Origin: a phage
Direction: 5' to 3' (one strand)
Length of the DNA: 64,000 bases
NCBI GenBank assembly: GCA_011884725.1
Contig: GCA_011884725.1_3919.1
The notes below the pieces were generated by a model, which saw only the letters and a program-made list of their open reading frames with translations, was not told the origin of the DNA and ran no database searches. Below, one piece after another: positions 15,928-49,727 of the stretch. A program made the position numbers and the translations under genes. Within the stretch, counting starts at the first letter, position 1. Each line of letters begins with the position of its first letter.

Positions 15928-16299
15928 ATGAAAAACAGAACAAACAAAGGCCAGTTTAAAAAAGGCCAGTCTGGAAACCCATCTGGAAGACCGAAAGGCT
16001 CACGTAACAAAAGTTCACTCGTAAAAGCTCAACTGACCATTGATAATTCTGCTGAGTTTGCTGCAAAGTTGTTTGAAGCGATTGTTACAAGGGACGCTGC
16101 TAAGCTTGCAGAGTTCGGGTTAAACACAGACGATGTAACCATCAAGAGCATGATTGAAGTCGGTAAAACCATCATGACTCACTCAGCAGGTGAGATGAAA
16201 GCAATTGCAGCAGACACTAAGAAGACCCCTGATAACGGTGGTCAGTCTCAGACAGATAACAAACCAACGTTCTCTGCTGTTGCAACCCTCAAAAAATAA
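15928..16299 (+). CDS. hypothetical protein with basic Gly/Pro-rich N-terminus
   Basis: 123 aa; KGQSGNPSGRPKGSRNK motif, possibly nucleic-acid binding; family not identified. Confidence 0.6.
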   Translation: MKNRTNKGQFKKGQSGNPSGRPKGSRNKSSLVKAQLTIDNSAEFAAKLFEAIVTRDAAKLAEFGLNTDDVTIKSMIEVGKTIMTHSAGEMKAIAADTKKTPDNGGQSQTDNKPTFSAVATLKK

Positions 16300-16380: not shown

Positions 16381-17796
16381 ATGAGCGAATTATTTAAACA
16401 TGCGCACCTTCATGCAGGTCGAACTGAAAATGGTGCTGTAAACCATACTTCATCAATGTCTGCTCTTGTAGACTTTTACAAAGCTGCTGGTTCAAGCCGT
16501 AGCAATGTAGAAATCTTACCAGACCTGTTCTACAAAGCTTTGCGTGAGGATGTTGATGTTGCAGTTCGTATTTTACTGCATATGCGAGATGTACGAGAAG
16601 GTATGGGTGAGCGTAAAGCCTTCAGAACTGTTTTACTTCAAGCGATTGAAGACAAAGTTTTAGAGCCTACGCAGGTTCTTCGCATTATGGATAAGATTGC
16701 AGAACTTGGTCGTTTTGATGACTTCAAAATCTTTGTAGGTACTCGTTTCGAGACAGATGCCTTCAAGCATTTAGAAGCAGCATTACTAGACCCTGCAACA
16801 GCAGGTTTGGCAGCTAAGTGGTTACCACGAGTCAAACCACGTCATAAGCAGTTTGTAAAACGTTTCTGCAAGTTTGCCAACTTGAGCGAGAAAGAGTACC
16901 GCACACTGTTGTCTGCACTATCTGATACAGTTGAGCAAAAAATCTCTGCTAATGAGTTTGGTAAGATTGACTACAGTAAGATTCCTTCACTTGCTGCTGC
17001 ACGCTACCAAAAACTGTTTAACCGTAAAGATGGAGAGCGATACAAAGCTTACATCGAGTCCTTATCAAAGGGTGAGGCTAAGATTAATGCTGGTGCTGTT
17101 TACCCATACGATGTGATTAAATCTGTCAAGCATGGTAATGCAGATGTTGCTAATGAGCAGTGGAAAGCACTACCAAACTGGATGGCAGAAGGTGAAAACA
17201 TCTTGTGTATGTCTGATGTATCAAGTTCAATGTCTTGGGTGAATTTTGGCTCCATTACTGCTCTGGATATTGGTGTATCACTTGCCTTGTATGTAGCAGA
17301 ACGCAATACAGGCTGCTTTAAGAATGAGTTGATGGTTTATTCAACAAACCCTCACTTCATCGAACTGAGTGGTGATTTACGAAACCGTCATCGTCAGGTG
17401 ATGCGACACGTTGAATATGGCTCAACTAACTTACAAGCAGCTTTTGACCGCATTCTTGAAACAGGTAAAAGAAACAACTTGACTCAGAAAGATATGCCAA
17501 GTAAGCTTATCATCTTCTCCGATATGGAGTTCAATCAGGTTGATGGAGCTAACGGTCGTACAAACTTTGAAGCAATTCAGAGTAAGTACAAAAAAGCTGG
17601 ATATGAGATGCCACAACTGGTATTCTGGTACTTAGCAAACCGTAATGGTACTTGCGAAGTGTCTGTTAAGGATAACGGTGTAGCAATGGTATCTGGTTTC
17701 TCTCCAGCCACTTTAAAAGCTCTGCTTGGTGGTGAGAAGTTTGACCCAATCAGCGTAATGCTCAAAGCAGTAATGATTGACCGTTATATCTGGTAA
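16381..17796 (+). CDS. vWA-domain protein with helical N-domain (possible TROVE/Ro60-like architecture)
   Basis: 471 aa; C-terminal vWA with MIDAS-like DVSSSMS (DxSxS) and downstream T and D positions (IIFSDMEF); helical N-domain of about 270 aa; sits directly upstream of the tRNA array. Confidence 0.7.
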   Translation: MSELFKHAHLHAGRTENGAVNHTSSMSALVDFYKAAGSSRSNVEILPDLFYKALREDVDVAVRILLHMRDVREGMGERKAFRTVLLQAIEDKVLEPTQVLRIMDKIAELGRFDDFKIFVGTRFETDAFKHLEAALLDPATAGLAAKWLPRVKPRHKQFVKRFCKFANLSEKEYRTLLSALSDTVEQKISANEFGKIDYSKIPSLAAARYQKLFNRKDGERYKAYIESLSKGEAKINAGAVYPYDVIKSVKHGNADVANEQWKALPNWMAEGENILCMSDVSSSMSWVNFGSITALDIGVSLALYVAERNTGCFKNELMVYSTNPHFIELSGDLRNRHRQVMRHVEYGSTNLQAAFDRILETGKRNNLTQKDMPSKLIIFSDMEFNQVDGANGRTNFEAIQSKYKKAGYEMPQLVFWYLANRNGTCEVSVKDNGVAMVSGFSPATLKALLGGEKFDPISVMLKAVMIDRYIW

Positions 17797-17814: not shown

Positions 17815-17843
17815 TTGACAATGTGTTTAATACCCTTTAATAT
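17815..17843 (+). promoter_or_regulatory. promoter of tRNA array
   Basis: TTGACA (17815-17820), 17-nt spacer, TAATAT (17838-17843); a second TTGACA lies at 17906. Confidence 0.6.
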
Positions 17844-17961
17844 GTTCTACATAGAAACGAAATGAGAGCTTTTCTAAGATACTGAAAAATATTTTAAAAA
17901 AGTTCTTGACAACCACTAAAAAATAATGTTAAAGTGGTTACATAGAGTTTGAAAAGTTTAT

Positions 17962-18045: not shown

Positions 18046-18123
18046 GTTCCAGTAGACAAAATGGTAAAGTCACCACTCTTTCAAAGTGGATATCTGAGGG
18101 TTCAAATCCCTTCTGGAACGCCA
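18046..18123 (+). tRNA. tRNA-Glu (anticodon TTC)
   Basis: Acceptor GTTCCAG/CTGGAAC, anticodon stem CCACT/AGTGG, loop CTTTCAA, T-loop TTCAAAT, CCA. Confidence 0.75.
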
Positions 18124-18126
18124 GTT

Positions 18127-18205
18127 TTGACAGAAGACCAATTACAGCAAACTTAATCTTATTCATCTGAAGGTAAATCGGACAAAGAAGAGATTTGGTC
18201 TGGTC
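18127..18205 (+). ncRNA. inter-tRNA structured element E1
   Basis: CAGAAGACC-box, helix AGACCAA (18135-18141) / TTGGTCT (18195-18201), TTACAGCAAA box inside. Confidence 0.5.
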
Positions 18206-18214
18206 ATTAAGAAT

Positions 18215-18291
18215 TGCGGGTATAGAGAAAGGGCGTCTCACATGTCTCATTAGCATGGTATCGGCAGGTTCGACTCCTGCACCCGCCTCCA
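18215..18291 (+). tRNA. tRNA-Met-like (anticodon CAT) with 1:72 mismatch
   Basis: Anticodon stem CATGT/GCATG, loop CTCATTA, T-arm GCAGGTTCGACTCCTGC, 3' ACCCGCC-T-CCA; 5' end TGCGGGT leaves position 1 unpaired. Confidence 0.6.
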
Positions 18292-18294
18292 AAT

Positions 18295-18365
18295 TTACAG
18301 AAGACCGTTTACAGCAAAATTGAATGAAATTTTTAGCGGAAAAATTGAAAGATACGGTCTGGTAA
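18295..18365 (+). ncRNA. inter-tRNA structured element E2
   Basis: Helix AGACCGT (18302-18308) / ACGGTCT (18354-18360); compensatory to E1; TTACAGCAAAA box. Confidence 0.5.
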
Positions 18366-18375
18366 TACTAAACAT

Positions 18376-18449
18376 GGTTAGGAAGCACATAAGGTATGTG
18401 CGGTCGCCTGTTAAGCGAATGGCACAGGGTTCGAATCCCTGACTAACCG
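18376..18449 (+). tRNA. tRNA-Asn (anticodon GTT)
   Basis: Acceptor GGTTAGG, D-stem GCAC/GTGC, anticodon loop CTGTTAA, T-arm CAGGGTTCGAATCCCTG; no encoded CCA. Confidence 0.65.
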
Positions 18450-18461
18450 CAAAATTGAAAT

Positions 18462-18549
18462 GTGTCGTTATCCCGTAGATGGTAGCGGTGGGGACTGTAA
18501 ATCCCTTGTCATTGAGACTCGGTAGGTTCGACTCCTACACGGCACACCA
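18462..18549 (+). tRNA. tRNA-Tyr (anticodon GTA), long variable arm
   Basis: Acceptor GTGTCGT/ACGGCAC, anticodon loop CTGTAAA, long variable arm, T-arm GTAGGTTCGACTCCTAC, CCA. Confidence 0.7.
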
Positions 18550-18554
18550 ATAAA

Positions 18555-18631
18555 GGCTATGTAGTTTAACTGGAGAAAATACTCCCCTGTCACGGGAGAT
18601 GATGTGAGTTCAAGTCTCATCGTAGCCGCCA
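18555..18631 (+). tRNA. tRNA-Asp (anticodon GTC)
   Basis: Acceptor GGCTATG/CGTAGCC, anticodon stem CTCCC/GGGAG, loop CTGTCAC, T-loop TTCAAGT, CCA. Confidence 0.75.
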
Positions 18632-18685
18632 AATTATAATAAGTATTTCAAAATGATGTTTTGAGAGGGCTATTTAGCCCCTCCC

Positions 18686-18716
18686 TTAAAGAGTTCTTAC
18701 GAGTATTCTTTAAAGG
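18686..18716 (+). ncRNA. hairpin with conserved TTCTTACGAG loop, copy 1
   Basis: TTAAAGAGTTCTTACGAGTATTCTTTAAAGG; second copy at 22027-22056 has a different but still complementary stem. Confidence 0.45.
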
Positions 18717-18795
18717 AGCAGAAGACCAAATACAGCAAGAATGTATGATATTTTCAAGCCAATCCAATTTTGAAAAAATTTAAAACTTGGTCTGG
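18717..18795 (+). ncRNA. inter-tRNA structured element E3
   Basis: CAGAAGACC box, helix AGACCAA (18723-18729) / TTGGTCT (18787-18793), ATACAGCAAG box. Confidence 0.5.
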
Positions 18796-18804
18796 CTCAA
18801 CAAA

Positions 18805-18939
18805 TTTACAGAAGACCGTTTACAGCAAAACTTAAACAATCTATTTCTCGGTAAAGAAAAGGCGAAGGTTCGATTCCTTCACTCGGCAGATGTCGAGTTG
18901 GTGTAATGGTAGCACTTAAGATGATAAACAACGGTCTGG
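18805..18939 (+). ncRNA. element E4 enclosing a tRNA-like module
   Basis: Helix AGACCGTT (18813-18820) / AACGGTCT (18930-18937); inside: T-arm GAAGGTTCGATTCCTTC, hairpin ACTCGGC-AGAT-GTCGAGT, D-arm-like GTGTAATGGTAGCAC. The order is 3'-half before 5'-half. Confidence 0.45.
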
Positions 18940-18940
18940 T

Positions 18941-19084
18941 AATTATCTTTGTAGATAAGTTATTAAGCTTACCTGTGAGTATGCGACCACAAAGGGTGAA
19001 AGGGTAAATTCTAGATTTAAACCCAAAAAGGCACATCGCTACAGACCTTAAGCAAGTCTGGGTAGCTTATCTACAAAGATAATT
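18941..19084 (+). ncRNA. structured RNA closed by a 19-bp perfect helix
   Basis: AATTATCTTTGTAGATAAG (18941-18959) is the exact reverse complement of CTTATCTACAAAGATAATT (19066-19084); inner hairpins include CAGAC/GTCTG. Confidence 0.5.
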
Positions 19085-19088
19085 TAAT

Positions 19089-19246: not shown

Positions 19247-19322
19247 GCTGGTATAGTTAAGAAGGTTATAACACTCCCCTGATAAGGGAACATCGGTGGT
19301 TCGATTCCACCTACCAGTACCA
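19247..19322 (+). tRNA. tRNA-Ile (anticodon GAT)
   Basis: Acceptor GCTGGTA/TACCAGT, anticodon loop CTGATAA, T-arm GGTGGTTCGATTCCACC, CCA. Confidence 0.7.
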
Positions 19323-19337
19323 ATTTCAATAAAGTTG

Positions 19338-19366
19338 TTGACATTGAGATGTGACTACTTTATAGT
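19338..19366 (+). promoter_or_regulatory. internal promoter within tRNA array
   Basis: TTGACA (19338-19343), 17-nt spacer, TATAGT (19361-19366). Confidence 0.6.
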
Positions 19367-19568
19367 AACCTTAGTTTTCGTTGCGTAGCGTCTATTTTGC
19401 AAATTTAAAATAAATGCAAACGACAATGTTTTTCTGGCAGTAGCTTGATAGGCTAAACACCAGTGAGGTCTTCCAATCCCTCATCAAAGAATTTGGCGTA
19501 CTCGCCCACGGTATGATTAATAAGGTGGGCATCTTTAAGGGCTTTCTAAGAGAGTCTTTAAAGATAAT

Positions 19569-19645: not shown

Positions 19646-19787
19646 AATAGTTAGCAGATTACTTAGACGGCCTTAGCGGGTCTTCCTGTAGGGAGGTGGT
19701 CTGTATCTCATGTTTTCCAGAACATGTAAATAATCTGAGAAGAAGCTTGACAGTGTTGAGATAACAGGGTAAGCTTCGAATTATAAT

Positions 19788-19870
19788 ATGGGACGATGTT
19801 AAGACTCTAAGGCATGAGCAACGGCCTCCAAAACCGTTTCAAAGGGGTTCAACTCCTCCGTCCCATGCCA
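19788..19870 (+). tRNA. atypical tRNA (anticodon probably CCA, Trp?)
   Basis: Acceptor ATGGGAC/GTCCCAT, T-loop TTCAACT, CCA; anticodon stem AACGG/CCGTT encloses 9 nt (CCTCCAAAA); D region is 4-8 nt longer than usual. Confidence 0.45.
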
Positions 19871-19883
19871 AAGTCTTATTAGG

Positions 19884-21225: not shown

Positions 21226-21779
21226 GATACTTAAAGTATGCTTCATGGATTTTCTTAGCTTTGTTAGAGCCATTTGCAGCAATCTTAGCAGTTATCTTAG
21301 CACCTTTTGTAGTTCCATTCTACAGTGAGAAGAAAGGACACTTACCTTTCGGGTTCAGATGGATGGAGACATATGACAACCCAATTGATGGTGATGAAGG
21401 TCACGTTAAAAGATGGGCTAATATTAGATGGATTGGTAAACTAGGTGTCTACATGCAAAGAGTCGGATGGCTCTGGAGAAACAAAGCTTATAACTTCTCT
21501 TACCATGTATTAGGAAGAGATGTAAGAGATGTTACTAAGTGGAAAGGTAATATCAACGTAAGTTCTAACCCTGAAGATAATCAGACTGGTTATCTCCTAA
21601 TGTGGAACAGTAATGCTTGGGGATTATTCGCTTTTATCCCATCAATTAAAGTCTTCGGTAAACAGTTTTACTGGAGAATTTATGTTGGATGGAAACTTAA
21701 AAGTGTTGTCCCAGAAGAAAGAGCATTCTCAAGGGAAAGAGTTATGTTGGCATTCTTTATTCATCCACTGAGAAAGTAA
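21222..21779 (+). CDS. hypothetical membrane protein embedded in tRNA array
   Basis: 185 aa; N-terminal TM segment (WIFLALLEPFAAILAVILAPFVVPF); start overlaps previous stop; RBS GAGGA. Confidence 0.6.
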   Translation: MRYLKYASWIFLALLEPFAAILAVILAPFVVPFYSEKKGHLPFGFRWMETYDNPIDGDEGHVKRWANIRWIGKLGVYMQRVGWLWRNKAYNFSYHVLGRDVRDVTKWKGNINVSSNPEDNQTGYLLMWNSNAWGLFAFIPSIKVFGKQFYWRIYVGWKLKSVVPEERAFSRERVMLAFFIHPLRK

Positions 21780-49367: not shown

Positions 49368-49727
49368 TTATGGAAACAGACACTTAATGTCATCGTTTTT
49401 GAAGACGAAACTTGTGTAATTGTGACCGTCAACATCCAGCCAAACAGCCTGAACATCTACACCGTCAAGATTCTGGTAAAGCTCTTTGATGAAGTGGTCT
49501 TTTACAATCTGGCTGCTAGTTGTTTCCAGCTTAATGTTTGAGATTGCTGAACCTACAGCCATATAACCCATGACACGTTTCTTCTCAGTATGTTTAATCT
49601 TACCATCTTTGTAAGCCATAATGAGATTTGAAAGAATTTTTACACCATAATACTTTTCAAGGTGAGTGGGTACGCCATAAAAACCTAATGCGAAGTTTTC
49701 AGAGTGGATAATGTTTTCACGTTTCAT
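49368..49727 (-). CDS. hypothetical protein
   Basis: 119-aa ORF. Confidence 0.6.
   Translation of the reverse strand: MKRENIIHSENFALGFYGVPTHLEKYYGVKILSNLIMAYKDGKIKHTEKKRVMGYMAVGSAISNIKLETTSSQIVKDHFIKELYQNLDGVDVQAVWLDVDGHNYTSFVFKNDDIKCLFP

What the first reader, a model, noticed from the sequence alone, without database searches (positions are those of the whole stretch)
18127..18939. Four paralogous inter-tRNA elements with a covarying closing helix
Elements at 18127-18205, 18295-18365, 18717-18795 and 18805-18939 share a CAGAAGACC box, a TTACAGCAA(A) box and a 3' GGTCTGG box. The enclosing helix is AGACCAA/TTGGTCT in two copies and AGACCGT/ACGGTCT in the other two, i.e. double compensatory changes that keep pairing. 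That argues for selection on RNA structure rather than on sequence, and none of them folds as a tRNA.
Basis: seen in the sequence. Interest (0 to 1): 0.7.

Follow-up and report, generated by a model that had tools for sequence, protein, structure and literature searches.

The report
Phage Y-RNA-like partners of Ro60-like protein
The four repeats between the tRNA genes of this Felix O1-like phage are small structured RNAs of a widespread, apparently undescribed family that always sits next to a gene for a Ro60-like RNA-binding protein, so they are most likely that protein's "Y RNA" partners, and one of them carries a rearranged tRNA look-alike.

Summary
Four co-oriented elements (18128-18206, 18295-18365, 18716-18798, 18806-18942) share one architecture. 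It runs: a 4-bp outer helix, an AGA/G internal loop, a 7-bp helix (AGACCNN/NNGGUCU), then a single-stranded WUACAGCAA box.

The window is a Felixounavirus tRNA cluster. The ORF just upstream (16381-17796, DUF2828+DUF7788) models as a Ro60 ring plus vWA domain; its 12 best PDB fold matches are all Ro60.

The same RNA module (7-bp helix, WUWCAGCAA, 3' G) lies on the gene's strand beside homologous genes:
- 51 of 80 distant phage loci;
- 46 of 80 bacterial genome loci.

The helix sequence changes freely but stays paired. Of 212 boxes, 109 have a perfect partner, against 14.8 +/- 3.4 in swap controls. A covariance model trained only on distant phages returns elements 2, 1 and 3 as the top three hits in the 64-kb window.

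Element 4 holds a circularly permuted tRNA-like domain (V, T, closed acceptor stem-loop, D), the layout that defines bacterial YrlA Y RNAs. Distant relatives give sub-threshold Rfam YrlA hits.

I read the four as Y-RNA-like partners of a divergent Ro60, with a new binding module. Binding itself is inferred, not shown.

The parts
16381..17796 (+). Gene for the Ro60-like protein (471 aa; HEAT-repeat ring plus vWA domain with a DxSxS MIDAS motif). It is the proposed protein partner of the RNAs.
   Evidence: Pfam gives DUF2828 + DUF7788 and no TROVE match. PHROG 850 calls it 'RNA-binding protein'. The AF2 model has pLDDT 87.9. The 12 best Foldseek PDB matches are all Ro60, with E 1e-7 to 3e-6 and TMq 0.45-0.66. 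D279, S281, S283, T349 and D381 are invariant in 49 homologs.
17815..17935 (+). Two sigma-70-like promoters (17815-17843 and 17906-17935) heading the tRNA / small-RNA cluster.
   Evidence: Consensus scan scores 10 of 12 for each. No + strand terminator-like site lies between them and 19700.
18128..18206 (+). Element 1, short type. Outer helix 18128-18131/18203-18206; loop AGA 18132-18134 against G 18202; 7-bp helix 18135-18141/18195-18201; box UUACAGCAA 18142-18150. It lies between tRNA-Glu and an atypical tRNA-Met.
   Evidence: CM R1, trained on distant phages only, scores it 31.7 bits, E 8.7e-5.
18295..18365 (+). Element 2, short type. Outer helix 18295-18298/18362-18365; 7-bp helix 18302-18308/18354-18360; box 18309-18317. 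It lies between the atypical tRNA-Met and tRNA-Asn.
   Evidence: R1 scores it 33.2 bits, E 3.9e-5, the best hit in the window.
18716..18798 (+). Element 3, short type. Outer helix 18716-18719/18795-18798; 7-bp helix 18723-18729/18787-18793; box AUACAGCAA 18730-18738.
   Evidence: R1 scores it 24.9 bits, E 3.1e-3.
18806..18942 (+). Element 4, long YrlA-like type. Outer helix 18806-18809/18939-18942; 7-bp helix 18813-18819/18931-18937; box 18820-18828.
   Evidence: The consensus fold of 8 orthologs keeps both helices.
18831..18920 (+). Circularly permuted tRNA-like domain inside element 4:
- 'anticodon-stem' 3' strand, 18831-18835
- long variable region with hairpin, 18836-18863
- T arm GAAGG-UUCGAUU-CCUUC, 18864-18880
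- closed acceptor stem-loop ACUCGGC-AGAU-GUCGAGU, 18881-18898
- U8/G9, 18899-18900
- D arm GUGU-AAUGGUA-GCAC, 18901-18915
- 'anticodon-stem' 5' strand, 18916-18920
   Evidence: MFE fold. After un-permuting and adding an artificial anticodon loop, ARAGORN calls a tRNA at default settings once the 28-nt variable region is cut to 22 nt or less. T, AS and D arms are kept in orthologs, and the AS stem has 3 double compensatory changes.

Best explanation
The four elements are small non-coding RNAs of one family. They are the phage's counterparts of Y RNAs, the dedicated RNA partners of the Ro60-like protein encoded just upstream (16381-17796).

Shown here:
- They share a conserved, covarying module: a 7-bp helix, a WUWCAGCAA single strand on its 5' arm and a G after its 3' arm. 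In this phage lineage there is also an AGA/G internal loop and a 4-bp outer helix.
- This module is genetically tied, on the same strand, to DUF2828-type Ro60-like genes across very distant phages and bacteria.
- Element 4 carries a tRNA-like domain in the V-T-AS-D order that defines YrlA Y RNAs.

Inferred:
- The RNAs are co-transcribed with the tRNAs from the promoters at 17815 and 17906.
- Elements 1 and 2 are released as RNAs of about 84-91 nt simply by maturation of the flanking tRNAs. RNase P would cut at 18215 and 18376, with 3' trimming after 18123 and 18291.
- The shared helix/CAGCAA module docks on the Ro60-like ring.
- The differing interiors (small hairpins in elements 1-3, the tRNA mimic in element 4) act as adaptor or gate modules. 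They would tether the protein to other factors or control which RNAs reach it, as Y RNAs do for Ro60 and PNPase.
- The particle acts on RNA turnover or repair during infection. A preprint reports that the orthologous-looking Bas63 gp130 counters the Ppl defence system, so an anti-defence role is plausible.
For: (1) Protein. The AF2 model (pLDDT 87.9) has only Ro60 structures as its 12 best PDB matches: Thermus phage, Deinococcus, Xenopus and human. The MIDAS residues are invariant.

(2) Linkage. At least one canonical element is present in 51 of 80 IMG/VR loci holding a 39-48% identical homolog. Of 93 elements, 68 lie within 600 nt of the gene and none inside it. The figure is 46 of 80 for bacterial genome loci, with 70 forward against 7 reverse hits.

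(3) Non-circular family test. CM R1, built from 28 elements of distant phages only, returns elements 2, 1 and 3 as the top three hits in the whole window on both strands. In 519 kb of bacterial loci all 36 hits at E <= 0.01 are on the gene's strand, mostly just upstream of it.

(4) Covariation.
- 109 of 212 NTNCAGCAA boxes have a perfect 7-bp partner, against 14.8 +/- 3.4 (maximum 26) in 200 swap controls and 9 of 112 on the minus strand.
- There are 60 distinct helices, and all four Watson-Crick pair types occur at helix positions 4, 6 and 7.
- Orthologs show double changes in the unselected outer helix (UUAC/GUAA to UUGC/GCAA; GAGC/GCUC to GGGC/GUCC).
- G.U variants are tolerated only on the + strand.

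(5) YrlA likeness.
- Element 4 has the V-T-AS-D order. This is the same layout described for YrlA (PMC4201824; bioRxiv 10.1101/312249).
- Long-type relatives in nine other phage loci were found by a T-arm scan. On individual folding most of them show the same layout, clearly in L024, L039, L060 and both L089 copies; L029, L040 and L051 do not fold that way.
- Four such relatives hit Rfam YrlA RF02553 below threshold, the best at 38.9 bits, E 3e-6 to 4e-5.

(6) Position. The elements lie 331-1146 nt past the gene's stop, on the same strand. That is within the 4-kb same-strand rule found for bacterial Y RNAs.

(7) Literature. The PhageMaP preprint independently calls Bas63 gp130 Ro60-like and guesses that Y RNAs hide among the 'tRNA genes' (PMC11482910).
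Against: - No binding or expression data exist; everything about the RNA-protein contact is inference from linkage.
- The Ro-binding sequence motif of known Y RNAs (GNCGAAN0-1G; CGAA) is absent. The nearest thing is CAGAAG in this lineage, and the bases before the helix are simply A/U-rich in distant members.
- Element 4 gets no Rfam YrlA hit even at E <= 10. Relatives that do hit stay far below the gathering score of 69.
- The protein shows no sequence-level similarity to Ro60 or TROVE, even with a profile.
- 29 of 80 phage loci and 34 of 80 bacterial loci lack a canonical element, at least under my CAGCAA-anchored scan.
- The outer helix is paired in only 55% of cells family-wide, so it is a lineage feature.
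- In bacteria most copies sit directly upstream of the gene, which also fits a cis-acting leader.
Confidence: 0.7

Rival explanations
1. Cis-acting sites on mRNA or precursor RNA, not free-standing small RNAs. The helix/CAGCAA module would be an operator through which the Ro60-like protein autoregulates or marks transcripts, or a processing or stability signal in the tRNA precursor. No adaptor function would be involved.
For: In bacterial loci most copies lie within about 600 nt upstream of the gene start, where a leader would be. Tandem copies abut or overlap, as in L047 and L079. Elements 1 and 2 exactly fill tRNA spacers.
Against: In this window the elements are downstream of the gene. Two promoters and two tRNAs separate them from it, so they cannot be its leader. 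Copies occur both upstream (35) and downstream (58) in phages. Many carry an elaborate, conserved tRNA-like domain, which a processing signal does not need.
Confidence: 0.13
2. Decayed or rearranged tRNA genes. The 7-bp helix would be a former acceptor stem, and element 4 the junction of two tandem tRNA remnants or a permuted tRNA gene matured into a real tRNA.
For: The elements sit in a tRNA cluster. The helix is 7 bp long. Element 4 has T and D arms and a 7-bp acceptor-like stem. Some records annotate tRNA pseudogenes nearby.
Against: - Elements 1-3 have no T or D arm (1 of 74 short elements has a T-arm-like motif).
- The family occurs next to the Ro60-like gene in loci without regard to tRNAs, and in bacteria.
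- The structure is maintained by compensation across genera, which pseudogenes would not show.
- Element 4 has no 7-nt anticodon loop, and its 'anticodon stem' is not conserved outside Felixounavirus.
- I saw no bulge-helix-bulge motif of the kind used to mature permuted tRNAs; this is by inspection only.
Confidence: 0.05
3. DNA-level repeats: inverted repeats recognised as DNA, or recombination or mobility sites that shuffle tRNA cassettes.
For: The identical 26-nt 5' boxes of elements 2 and 4 appear to have mediated a deletion in Salmonella phage PMBT20. There, element 1 is followed directly by an element-4-type copy, and the tRNA-Met to element 3 stretch is missing. Copy number varies from 2 to 4 among close relatives.
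Against: - Variants create G.U pairs on the + strand, which would be A.C mismatches on the other strand.
- The arms are compensated rather than conserved, with 60 different helices.
- Orientation is always that of the gene; 36 of 36 CM hits are on its strand.
- The conserved single-stranded box and the tRNA-like fold make sense only as RNA.

Recombination between copies is better seen as a side effect.
Confidence: 0.03

Closest known systems
YrlA / YrlB, the bacterial Y RNAs bound by Rsr (Ro60) in Salmonella Typhimurium, also predicted in mycobacteriophages (Chen et al. 2014, PMC4201824; Rfam RF02553)
   Same: - Encoded next to the Ro60-type gene on the same strand.
- Several paralogous RNAs per locus.
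- A two-module build: a stem formed by the 5' and 3' parts, plus an effector module.
- One RNA per locus with a tRNA-like domain in V-T-AS-D order and a closed acceptor stem-loop, i.e. a circularly permuted tRNA look-alike.
- A YUAY-like UUAC follows the 5' strand of the stem.
- Distant family members hit the YrlA model at E down to 3e-6.
   Different: - The protein-binding module differs. There is no GNCGAAN0-1G/CGAA motif; instead a 7-bp helix starting A-G (or A-A-G), WUWCAGCAA on one side and G on the other.
- The partner protein is DUF2828/DUF7788, recognisable as Ro60 only by fold.
- Window element 4 does not hit RF02553 at all.
- Here the RNAs are interleaved with tRNA genes.
Yrl1 / Yrl2 of Thermus phage phiLo with phage Ro60 (NAR 2025, PMC12135203; PDB 9KOP, 9L5Y)
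   Same: Phage-encoded Ro60-fold protein with two or more adjacent Y-like RNAs. 9KOP is the top structural match of the window protein. That system is proposed to hijack host PNPase to escape defences.
   Different: The phiLo RNAs were picked by the CGAA motif and lie upstream of a TROVE-type gene. They are not reported with a tRNA-like domain or in a tRNA cluster. Binding was shown in vitro there and not here.
Stable RNAs 'species 1 and 2' (rnaC, rnaD) in the phage T4 tRNA gene cluster (from my own knowledge, not checked here)
   Same: Small stable non-tRNA RNAs co-transcribed with phage tRNAs and released by tRNA-processing enzymes. Their function is unknown.
   Different: No Ro60-like gene is known to accompany them, and no sequence or structure comparison was made here.
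Circularly permuted tRNA genes (red alga Cyanidioschyzon merolae; from my own knowledge)
   Same: The 3' half precedes the 5' half. The acceptor stem is closed by a short linker. The leader and trailer pair with each other.
   Different: Those are matured through a bulge-helix-bulge motif and a circular intermediate into working tRNAs. Element 4 has no anticodon loop and no such motif, and its host lacks that splicing endonuclease.

Membership tests
Y RNA (Ro60-associated non-coding RNA) | Physically bound by the Ro60 protein of the same organism | not testable with these tools
   Needs immunoprecipitation, CLIP or EMSA. Only genetic linkage is available.
Y RNA (Ro60-associated non-coding RNA) | In prokaryotes: encoded within about 4 kb of the Ro60 gene on the same strand (Chen et al. 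2014) | tested here: met
   The elements start 331-1009 nt after the stop codon at 17796, all on the + strand. The same linkage holds in 51 of 80 phage and 46 of 80 bacterial loci.
Y RNA (Ro60-associated non-coding RNA) | 5' and 3' parts pair into a bulged stem that is the protein-binding module, with a second variable module | tested here: met
   Outer helix, AGA/G internal loop and 7-bp helix enclose a variable interior in all four elements. Covariation is shown.
Y RNA (Ro60-associated non-coding RNA) | Conserved Ro-binding sequence (GGUCCGA in vertebrates; GNCGAAN0-1G / CGAA in bacteria and phage phiLo) | tested here: not met
   The window has CAGAAG at that place. Distant members have A/U-rich bases there. 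The conserved bases are instead A-G at the helix start, WUWCAGCAA and the 3' G.
YrlA (Rfam RF02553) | Score at or above the family's gathering threshold (69 bits) | tested here: not met
   No hit for window 18100-18960 at E <= 10. Relatives reach 38.9, 28.7, 26.7 and 25.2 bits.
YrlA (Rfam RF02553) | tRNA-like domain in the order V, T arm, closed acceptor stem-loop, D arm, with T-loop UUCRA and D-loop GG | tested here: met
   Element 4 spans 18836-18915. The T loop is UUCGAUU, the D loop AAUGGUA, and U8 is present. It is conserved in orthologs with a covarying AS stem. The Levitt pair is not standard (A15 with C48).
tRNA | Detected as a cloverleaf with an anticodon loop by ARAGORN or the Rfam tRNA model | tested here: not met
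   None of the four is called. Only the 21-nt T arm of element 4 gives 14.9 bits.
Ro60 / TROVE protein (for the upstream ORF) | HEAT-repeat ring followed by a vWA domain with MIDAS | tested here: met
   Full-length Foldseek matches to Ro60 only: 12 of the top 12, aligned over about 510-560 columns. DxSxS, T and D are invariant.
Ro60 / TROVE protein (for the upstream ORF) | Sequence match to the Pfam TROVE domain or to known Ro60 sequences | tested here: not met
   Pfam gives DUF2828 + DUF7788 only. There is no Ro60 hit in PDB sequences with the single sequence or the 49-sequence profile, and no NCBIfam match.
Permuted tRNA gene | Junction in a loop flanked by a bulge-helix-bulge motif; matures to a tRNA with a 7-nt anticodon loop | tested here: not met
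   The 'anticodon stem' runs into 10-11 nt single strands and the 7-bp helix. That stem is not conserved in Mooglevirus or Suspvirus orthologs.

The most novel reading that the evidence does not exclude
A large, previously unrecognised class of Y RNAs exists. It is defined by a new recognition module (a 7-bp A-G-N5 helix, WUWCAGCAA and a 3' G) and partners the DUF2828-type Ro60 proteins of many phages and bacteria.

In Felix O1-like phages, four such RNAs would be made as by-products of tRNA-operon processing. One of them, a tRNA mimic, would let the particle engage tRNA-directed host factors. The RNP would thus be an RNA-based anti-defence device and the functional partner needed for the reported Ppl counter-defence by gp130.
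Probability: 0.45. Interest if true: 0.8.

Novelty: new variant of a known kind. Interest (0 to 1): 0.68.

Why it matters
Ro60 and Y RNAs are a conserved but poorly understood RNA-surveillance system. Known bacterial and phage Y RNAs were found only next to proteins annotated as TROVE.

This result adds a second, widespread branch: DUF2828 proteins, with over 2,800 homologs scored in one search, each with its own RNA signature. It gives exact RNA candidates for a phage protein already reported to defeat a bacterial defence system. That makes the question "what do phage Ro60-like proteins bind and do" directly testable in an E. coli phage model.

It also explains conserved "spacers" that are left unannotated in hundreds of Felix O1-like genomes used for typing and therapy.

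Tried and rejected
- **Rfam on the elements.** Nothing relevant at E <= 10. The only overlaps were weak Dictyostelium Class I and poxvirus hits, taken as chance.
- **ARAGORN on un-permuted element 4 with its full 28-nt variable region.** Not called at default settings or at -ps90. At -ps80 it gives only an undetermined tRNA-???. Default calls needed the region shortened.
- **Sequence-level link of the protein to Ro60.** None with phmmer, the profile, or NCBIfam.
- **MAFFT/RNAalifold on eight long-type elements from distant phages.** Only the closing helix aligned; the interior was too divergent for a second covariance model.
- **Promoter reading of the TTGACA/TTTACA at the element starts.** Rejected; the scan finds no promoter there.
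- **Minus-strand ORFs annotated over elements 3-4 in some records** (wV8 gp48; window 18806-19036, 76 aa). Treated as spurious because the conservation pattern is that of RNA pairing.
- **The upstream DUF5681 gene (15928-16299) as a third system component.** Found only in the Ounavirinae-like loci and L018, so it is not general.
- **A box-plus-helix match at 21260-21478.** It lies inside a 185-aa ORF and lacks the 3' G, so it is taken as chance.
- **R1 hit at 49505-49568 (-), E 0.06.** Not pursued.
- **Locating Bas63 by a guessed accession.** This failed; MZ501111 is Bas51. Orthology of the window ORF with Bas63 gp130 therefore rests on genus and synteny only.
- **Supplements of Chen et al. 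2014.** Not held, so I could not check whether any Felix O1-like phage was in their list of 22 phages. Their search was limited to TROVE-annotated genomes.
Full report
**What the window is.** ARAGORN finds 26 tRNA genes on the + strand between 17962 and 23140. Megablast places the region in Felix O1-like phages (Felixounavirus, Ounavirinae), with 265 matching records at 80-99% identity. None of the three annotated records I opened says anything about the four elements. One record places a minus-strand hypothetical ORF over elements 3-4.

**The observation.** The composite 5' box ACAGAAGACCNNWTACAGCAA occurs exactly four times in 64 kb: at 18130, 18297, 18718 and 18808, all on the + strand. Chance expectation is 0.09. 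GGTCTGG lies at the matching 3' positions. It also shows a 4-bp outer helix that differs among the copies yet stays complementary: UGAC/GUCA, UUAC/GUAA, GAGC/GCUC, UUAC/GUAA. An AGA/G internal loop separates the two helices.

**Element 4 contains a permuted tRNA look-alike.** Reading 18831-18920 in order gives:
- a 5-nt strand (CUUAA);
- a 28-nt variable region with a hairpin;
- a canonical T arm (GAAGG-UUCGAUU-CCUUC);
- a 7-bp stem closed by AGAU (ACUCGGC/GUCGAGU);
- U-G;
- a canonical D arm (GUGU-AAUGGUA-GCAC);
- UUAAG, which pairs with the first strand.

I cut at the AGAU loop, joined the outer ends with an artificial anticodon loop and gave the result to ARAGORN. It calls a tRNA at default settings once the variable region is shortened to 22 nt or less. 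With the full 28 nt it gives only an undetermined tRNA-??? call at a relaxed threshold. In eight distinct orthologs the T and D arms are nearly invariant. The acceptor-like stem changes completely but stays paired: ACUCGGC/GUCGAGU, ACACGU/GCGUGU and ACCCUUC/GAAGGGU, with 3 pairs showing double changes. The 'anticodon stem' is kept only in Felixounavirus.

**The neighbour gene.** The ORF at 16381-17796 ends 331 nt before element 1. Pfam sees DUF2828 and DUF7788, and PHROGs calls it 'RNA-binding protein'. An AlphaFold model from 49 homologs has mean pLDDT 87.9. Its 12 best Foldseek matches in the PDB are all Ro60: Thermus phage phiLo, Deinococcus Rsr, Xenopus and human. They align over the whole length at E 1e-7 to 3e-6 and TM up to 0.66. 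Lower hits are isolated vWA domains. The MIDAS residues (D279, S281, S283, T349, D381) are invariant. There is no sequence-level match to Ro60 or TROVE, so this is a very divergent Ro60-fold protein.

A 2024 preprint reached the same structural reading for gp130 of the Felixounavirus Bas63. It reported that gp130 counters the Ppl defence system, and it speculated that some of the downstream 'tRNA genes' might be Y RNAs, without identifying any (PMC11482910).

**The elements follow the gene far beyond this genus.**
- All four copies are present in Mooglevirus and Suspvirus.
- Three are present in a metagenomic relative whose protein is 63% identical (L011).
- A Yersinia phage at 54% identity (L012) has three syntenic elements with the same build but different helices: GGACUGU/ACAGUCC, GGAUUCU/UGAAUCC and GGACUCU/UGAGUCC. 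Their loops are ACA/A or AUA/A. The one after tRNA-Asp again holds a T arm.

I then fetched 80 IMG/VR loci with 39-48% identical homologs and 80 loci from bacterial genome assemblies with 33-42% identity. A scan anchored only on NTNCAGCAA and a perfect 7-bp partner gave these counts:

| Set | Forward hits | Reverse hits | Shuffles |
|---|---|---|---|
| Phage set (80 IMG/VR loci plus L011 and L012) | 121 | 26 | 7-19 |
| Bacterial loci | 70 | 7 | not done |

At least one canonical element is present in 51 of 80 phage loci and 46 of 80 bacterial loci. In phages 68 of 93 lie within 600 nt of the gene and none lies inside it.

**Covariation, with circularity controlled.**
- Of 212 + strand boxes defined by sequence alone, 109 have a perfect 7-bp partner downstream. 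When helices and downstream sequences are swapped between loci the figure is 14.8 +/- 3.4, with a maximum of 26 in 200 trials. On the minus strand it is 9 of 112.
- Sixty different helix sequences occur. Positions 1-2 are mostly A-U and G-C, while positions 3-7 use all pair types.
- The pair counts are circular for the inner helix, because I selected for pairing there. They are not circular for the outer helix, which is paired in only 55% of cells. It is therefore a feature of the Ounavirinae-like lineage. There it does covary among orthologs: UUAC/GUAA to UUGC/GCAA, and GAGC/GCUC to GGGC/GUCC.
- Single changes give G.U on the + strand (AGGCCAA, AGGCCGU, AGACCGA, GGGC/GCUC, GAGC/GUUC). This marks the + strand RNA as the selected molecule.
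- A covariance model built only from 28 short elements of distant phages (A4, R1) finds elements 2, 1 and 3 as the three best hits in the entire window on both strands, at E 3.9e-5, 8.7e-5 and 3.1e-3.
- In 519 kb of bacterial loci all 36 hits at E <= 0.01 are on the gene's strand.

**Link to YrlA.** Chen et al. (2014) defined bacterial YrlA Y RNAs as follows. They are encoded within 4 kb of Ro60 on the same strand. They have a Ro-binding stem plus a tRNA-like domain ordered V, T, AS, D. Wang et al. describe most of them as resembling circularly permuted tRNAs with closed acceptor stems. Element 4 has this layout.

Long-type members of the family in nine other phage loci carry a T-arm-like motif. 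On individual MFE folding most show the same layout inside the same closing helix. It is clear in L024, L039, L060 and both L089 copies, often with textbook D arms. L029, L040 and L051 do not fold that way, so the layout is not uniform. Four long-type relatives hit Rfam YrlA below threshold; the best is L089 9497-9612 at 38.9 bits, E 3e-6 to 4e-5, against a gathering score of 69.

The alignments show that the match lies in the T-AS-D core, not in the outer stems. The YrlA binding motif GNCGAAN0-1G is absent. The conserved bases here are the A-G helix start, WUWCAGCAA and the 3' G. Window element 4 itself gives no YrlA hit. So the elements work like YrlA and YrlB but fail formal membership of RF02553.

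**Mechanism (inferred).** Two sigma-70-like promoters lie at 17815-17843 and 17906-17935. No + strand terminator-like site was found up to 19700. This suggests one precursor carrying both tRNAs and elements. Elements 1 and 2 exactly fill the spacers tRNA-Glu/tRNA-Met and tRNA-Met/tRNA-Asn, so ordinary tRNA maturation would release them as RNAs of about 91 and 84 nt.

By analogy with Ro60 and Y RNA, the shared module would dock on the ring. The four different interiors would act as gates or tethers, and the tRNA mimic would offer a handle for tRNA-recognising factors. The 7-bp acceptor-like stem of element 4 resembles the M. smegmatis YrlA that RNase P can cut.

**Rivals.** I considered three alternatives: cis-acting leader or processing signal, decayed or permuted tRNA genes, and DNA-level repeats. 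Each explains some features but not the whole combination. That combination is gene linkage in organisms without regard to tRNAs, strand-specific G.U tolerance, free compensation, and a conserved tRNA-like fold. Recombination between copies does seem to occur as a side effect. Salmonella phage PMBT20 lacks everything between the identical 5' boxes of elements 2 and 4.

**Novelty.** Rfam 15 has no family matching the module. In the searchable literature DUF2828 is never linked to phage RNAs or Y RNAs. The only relevant statement is the Bas63 speculation. The Chen et al. survey covered only TROVE-annotated genomes, including 22 phages. I could not read its supplementary list. I rate this a new variant of a known kind: Y-RNA-like RNAs with a new recognition module, paired with a divergent Ro60 family.

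Noticed in passing
window 18940-19088 (+): Directly after element 4, and before tRNA-Lys, lies a very stable structure with a closing stem of about 24 bp (-48.3 kcal/mol, z = -7.2). It is conserved in Mooglevirus, Suspvirus and L011, with 11 pairs changed on both sides in only 6 sequences. One inner arm (CUACAGACC-UUAAGCAA-GUCUGGGUAG, about 19050-19076) looks like a miniature of the element module. It could be an RNase III-type processing site or a fifth, reduced family member.
   Followed up: partly
window 18215-18291 (+): The tRNA-Met(CAU) between elements 1 and 2 is called by ARAGORN but not by the Rfam tRNA model; its best score is 15.9 bits to tRNA-Sec. It has an unusual D arm (GAGA-AAGGGCG-UCUC) and U at position 37. 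The same odd sequence is conserved in L011 and in the Yersinia phage L012, and several GenBank records do not annotate it.
   Followed up: partly
L009 (Salmonella phage PMBT20) 1341-1642, compared with window 18128-18942: This phage has element 1 followed directly by an element-4-type copy. The stretch from tRNA-Met to element 3 is missing. This is consistent with recombination between the identical 26-nt 5' boxes of elements 2 and 4. Element copy number (2-4) and tRNA content vary among close relatives (L008, L010).
   Followed up: partly
L018 6757-10931; L012 7851-13369: In two other phage lineages (protein 48% and 54% identical) the Ro60-like gene again heads a large tRNA cluster, with family members interleaved between tRNAs. 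The gene / tRNA / small-RNA arrangement is therefore older than Ounavirinae.
   Followed up: partly
window 19323-19568 and 19646-19883 (+): These are further unannotated gaps in the tRNA cluster. A strong promoter-like site lies at 19338-19366 (11 of 12). Weak Rfam hits include permuted tmRNA at 29 bits (19264-19448), tmRNA at 15.7 bits and tRNA-Sec at 23 bits (19790-19864). A well-folded stretch at 19646-19790 has z = -2.9. wV8 annotates a tRNA pseudogene near the last one.
   Followed up: no
L012 8995-9140 and 9290-9400 (+): The Yersinia phage has tRNA-like pieces (D-arm-like and T-arm GGGUUCGAUUCCC motifs) separated by about 70-100 nt of insert that ARAGORN does not call. They may be intron-containing or disrupted tRNA genes.
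   Followed up: no
window 15928-16299 (+): A small basic protein (DUF5681, phrog_4114) sits directly upstream of the Ro60-like gene. It keeps that position in L011-L018 but was not detected by a tblastn search with the window's own protein sequence in the remaining viral (L019-L092) and bacterial loci, a search that more divergent homologues could escape. It is therefore probably a lineage-specific neighbour rather than a general component.
   Followed up: yes
window 49505-49568 (-): This is the fourth-best hit of the family covariance model (19.3 bits, E 0.06): UGGCUGU...UUCAGCAAU...GCAGCCA. It is far from the Ro60-like gene and on the other strand, so it is probably chance.
   Followed up: no
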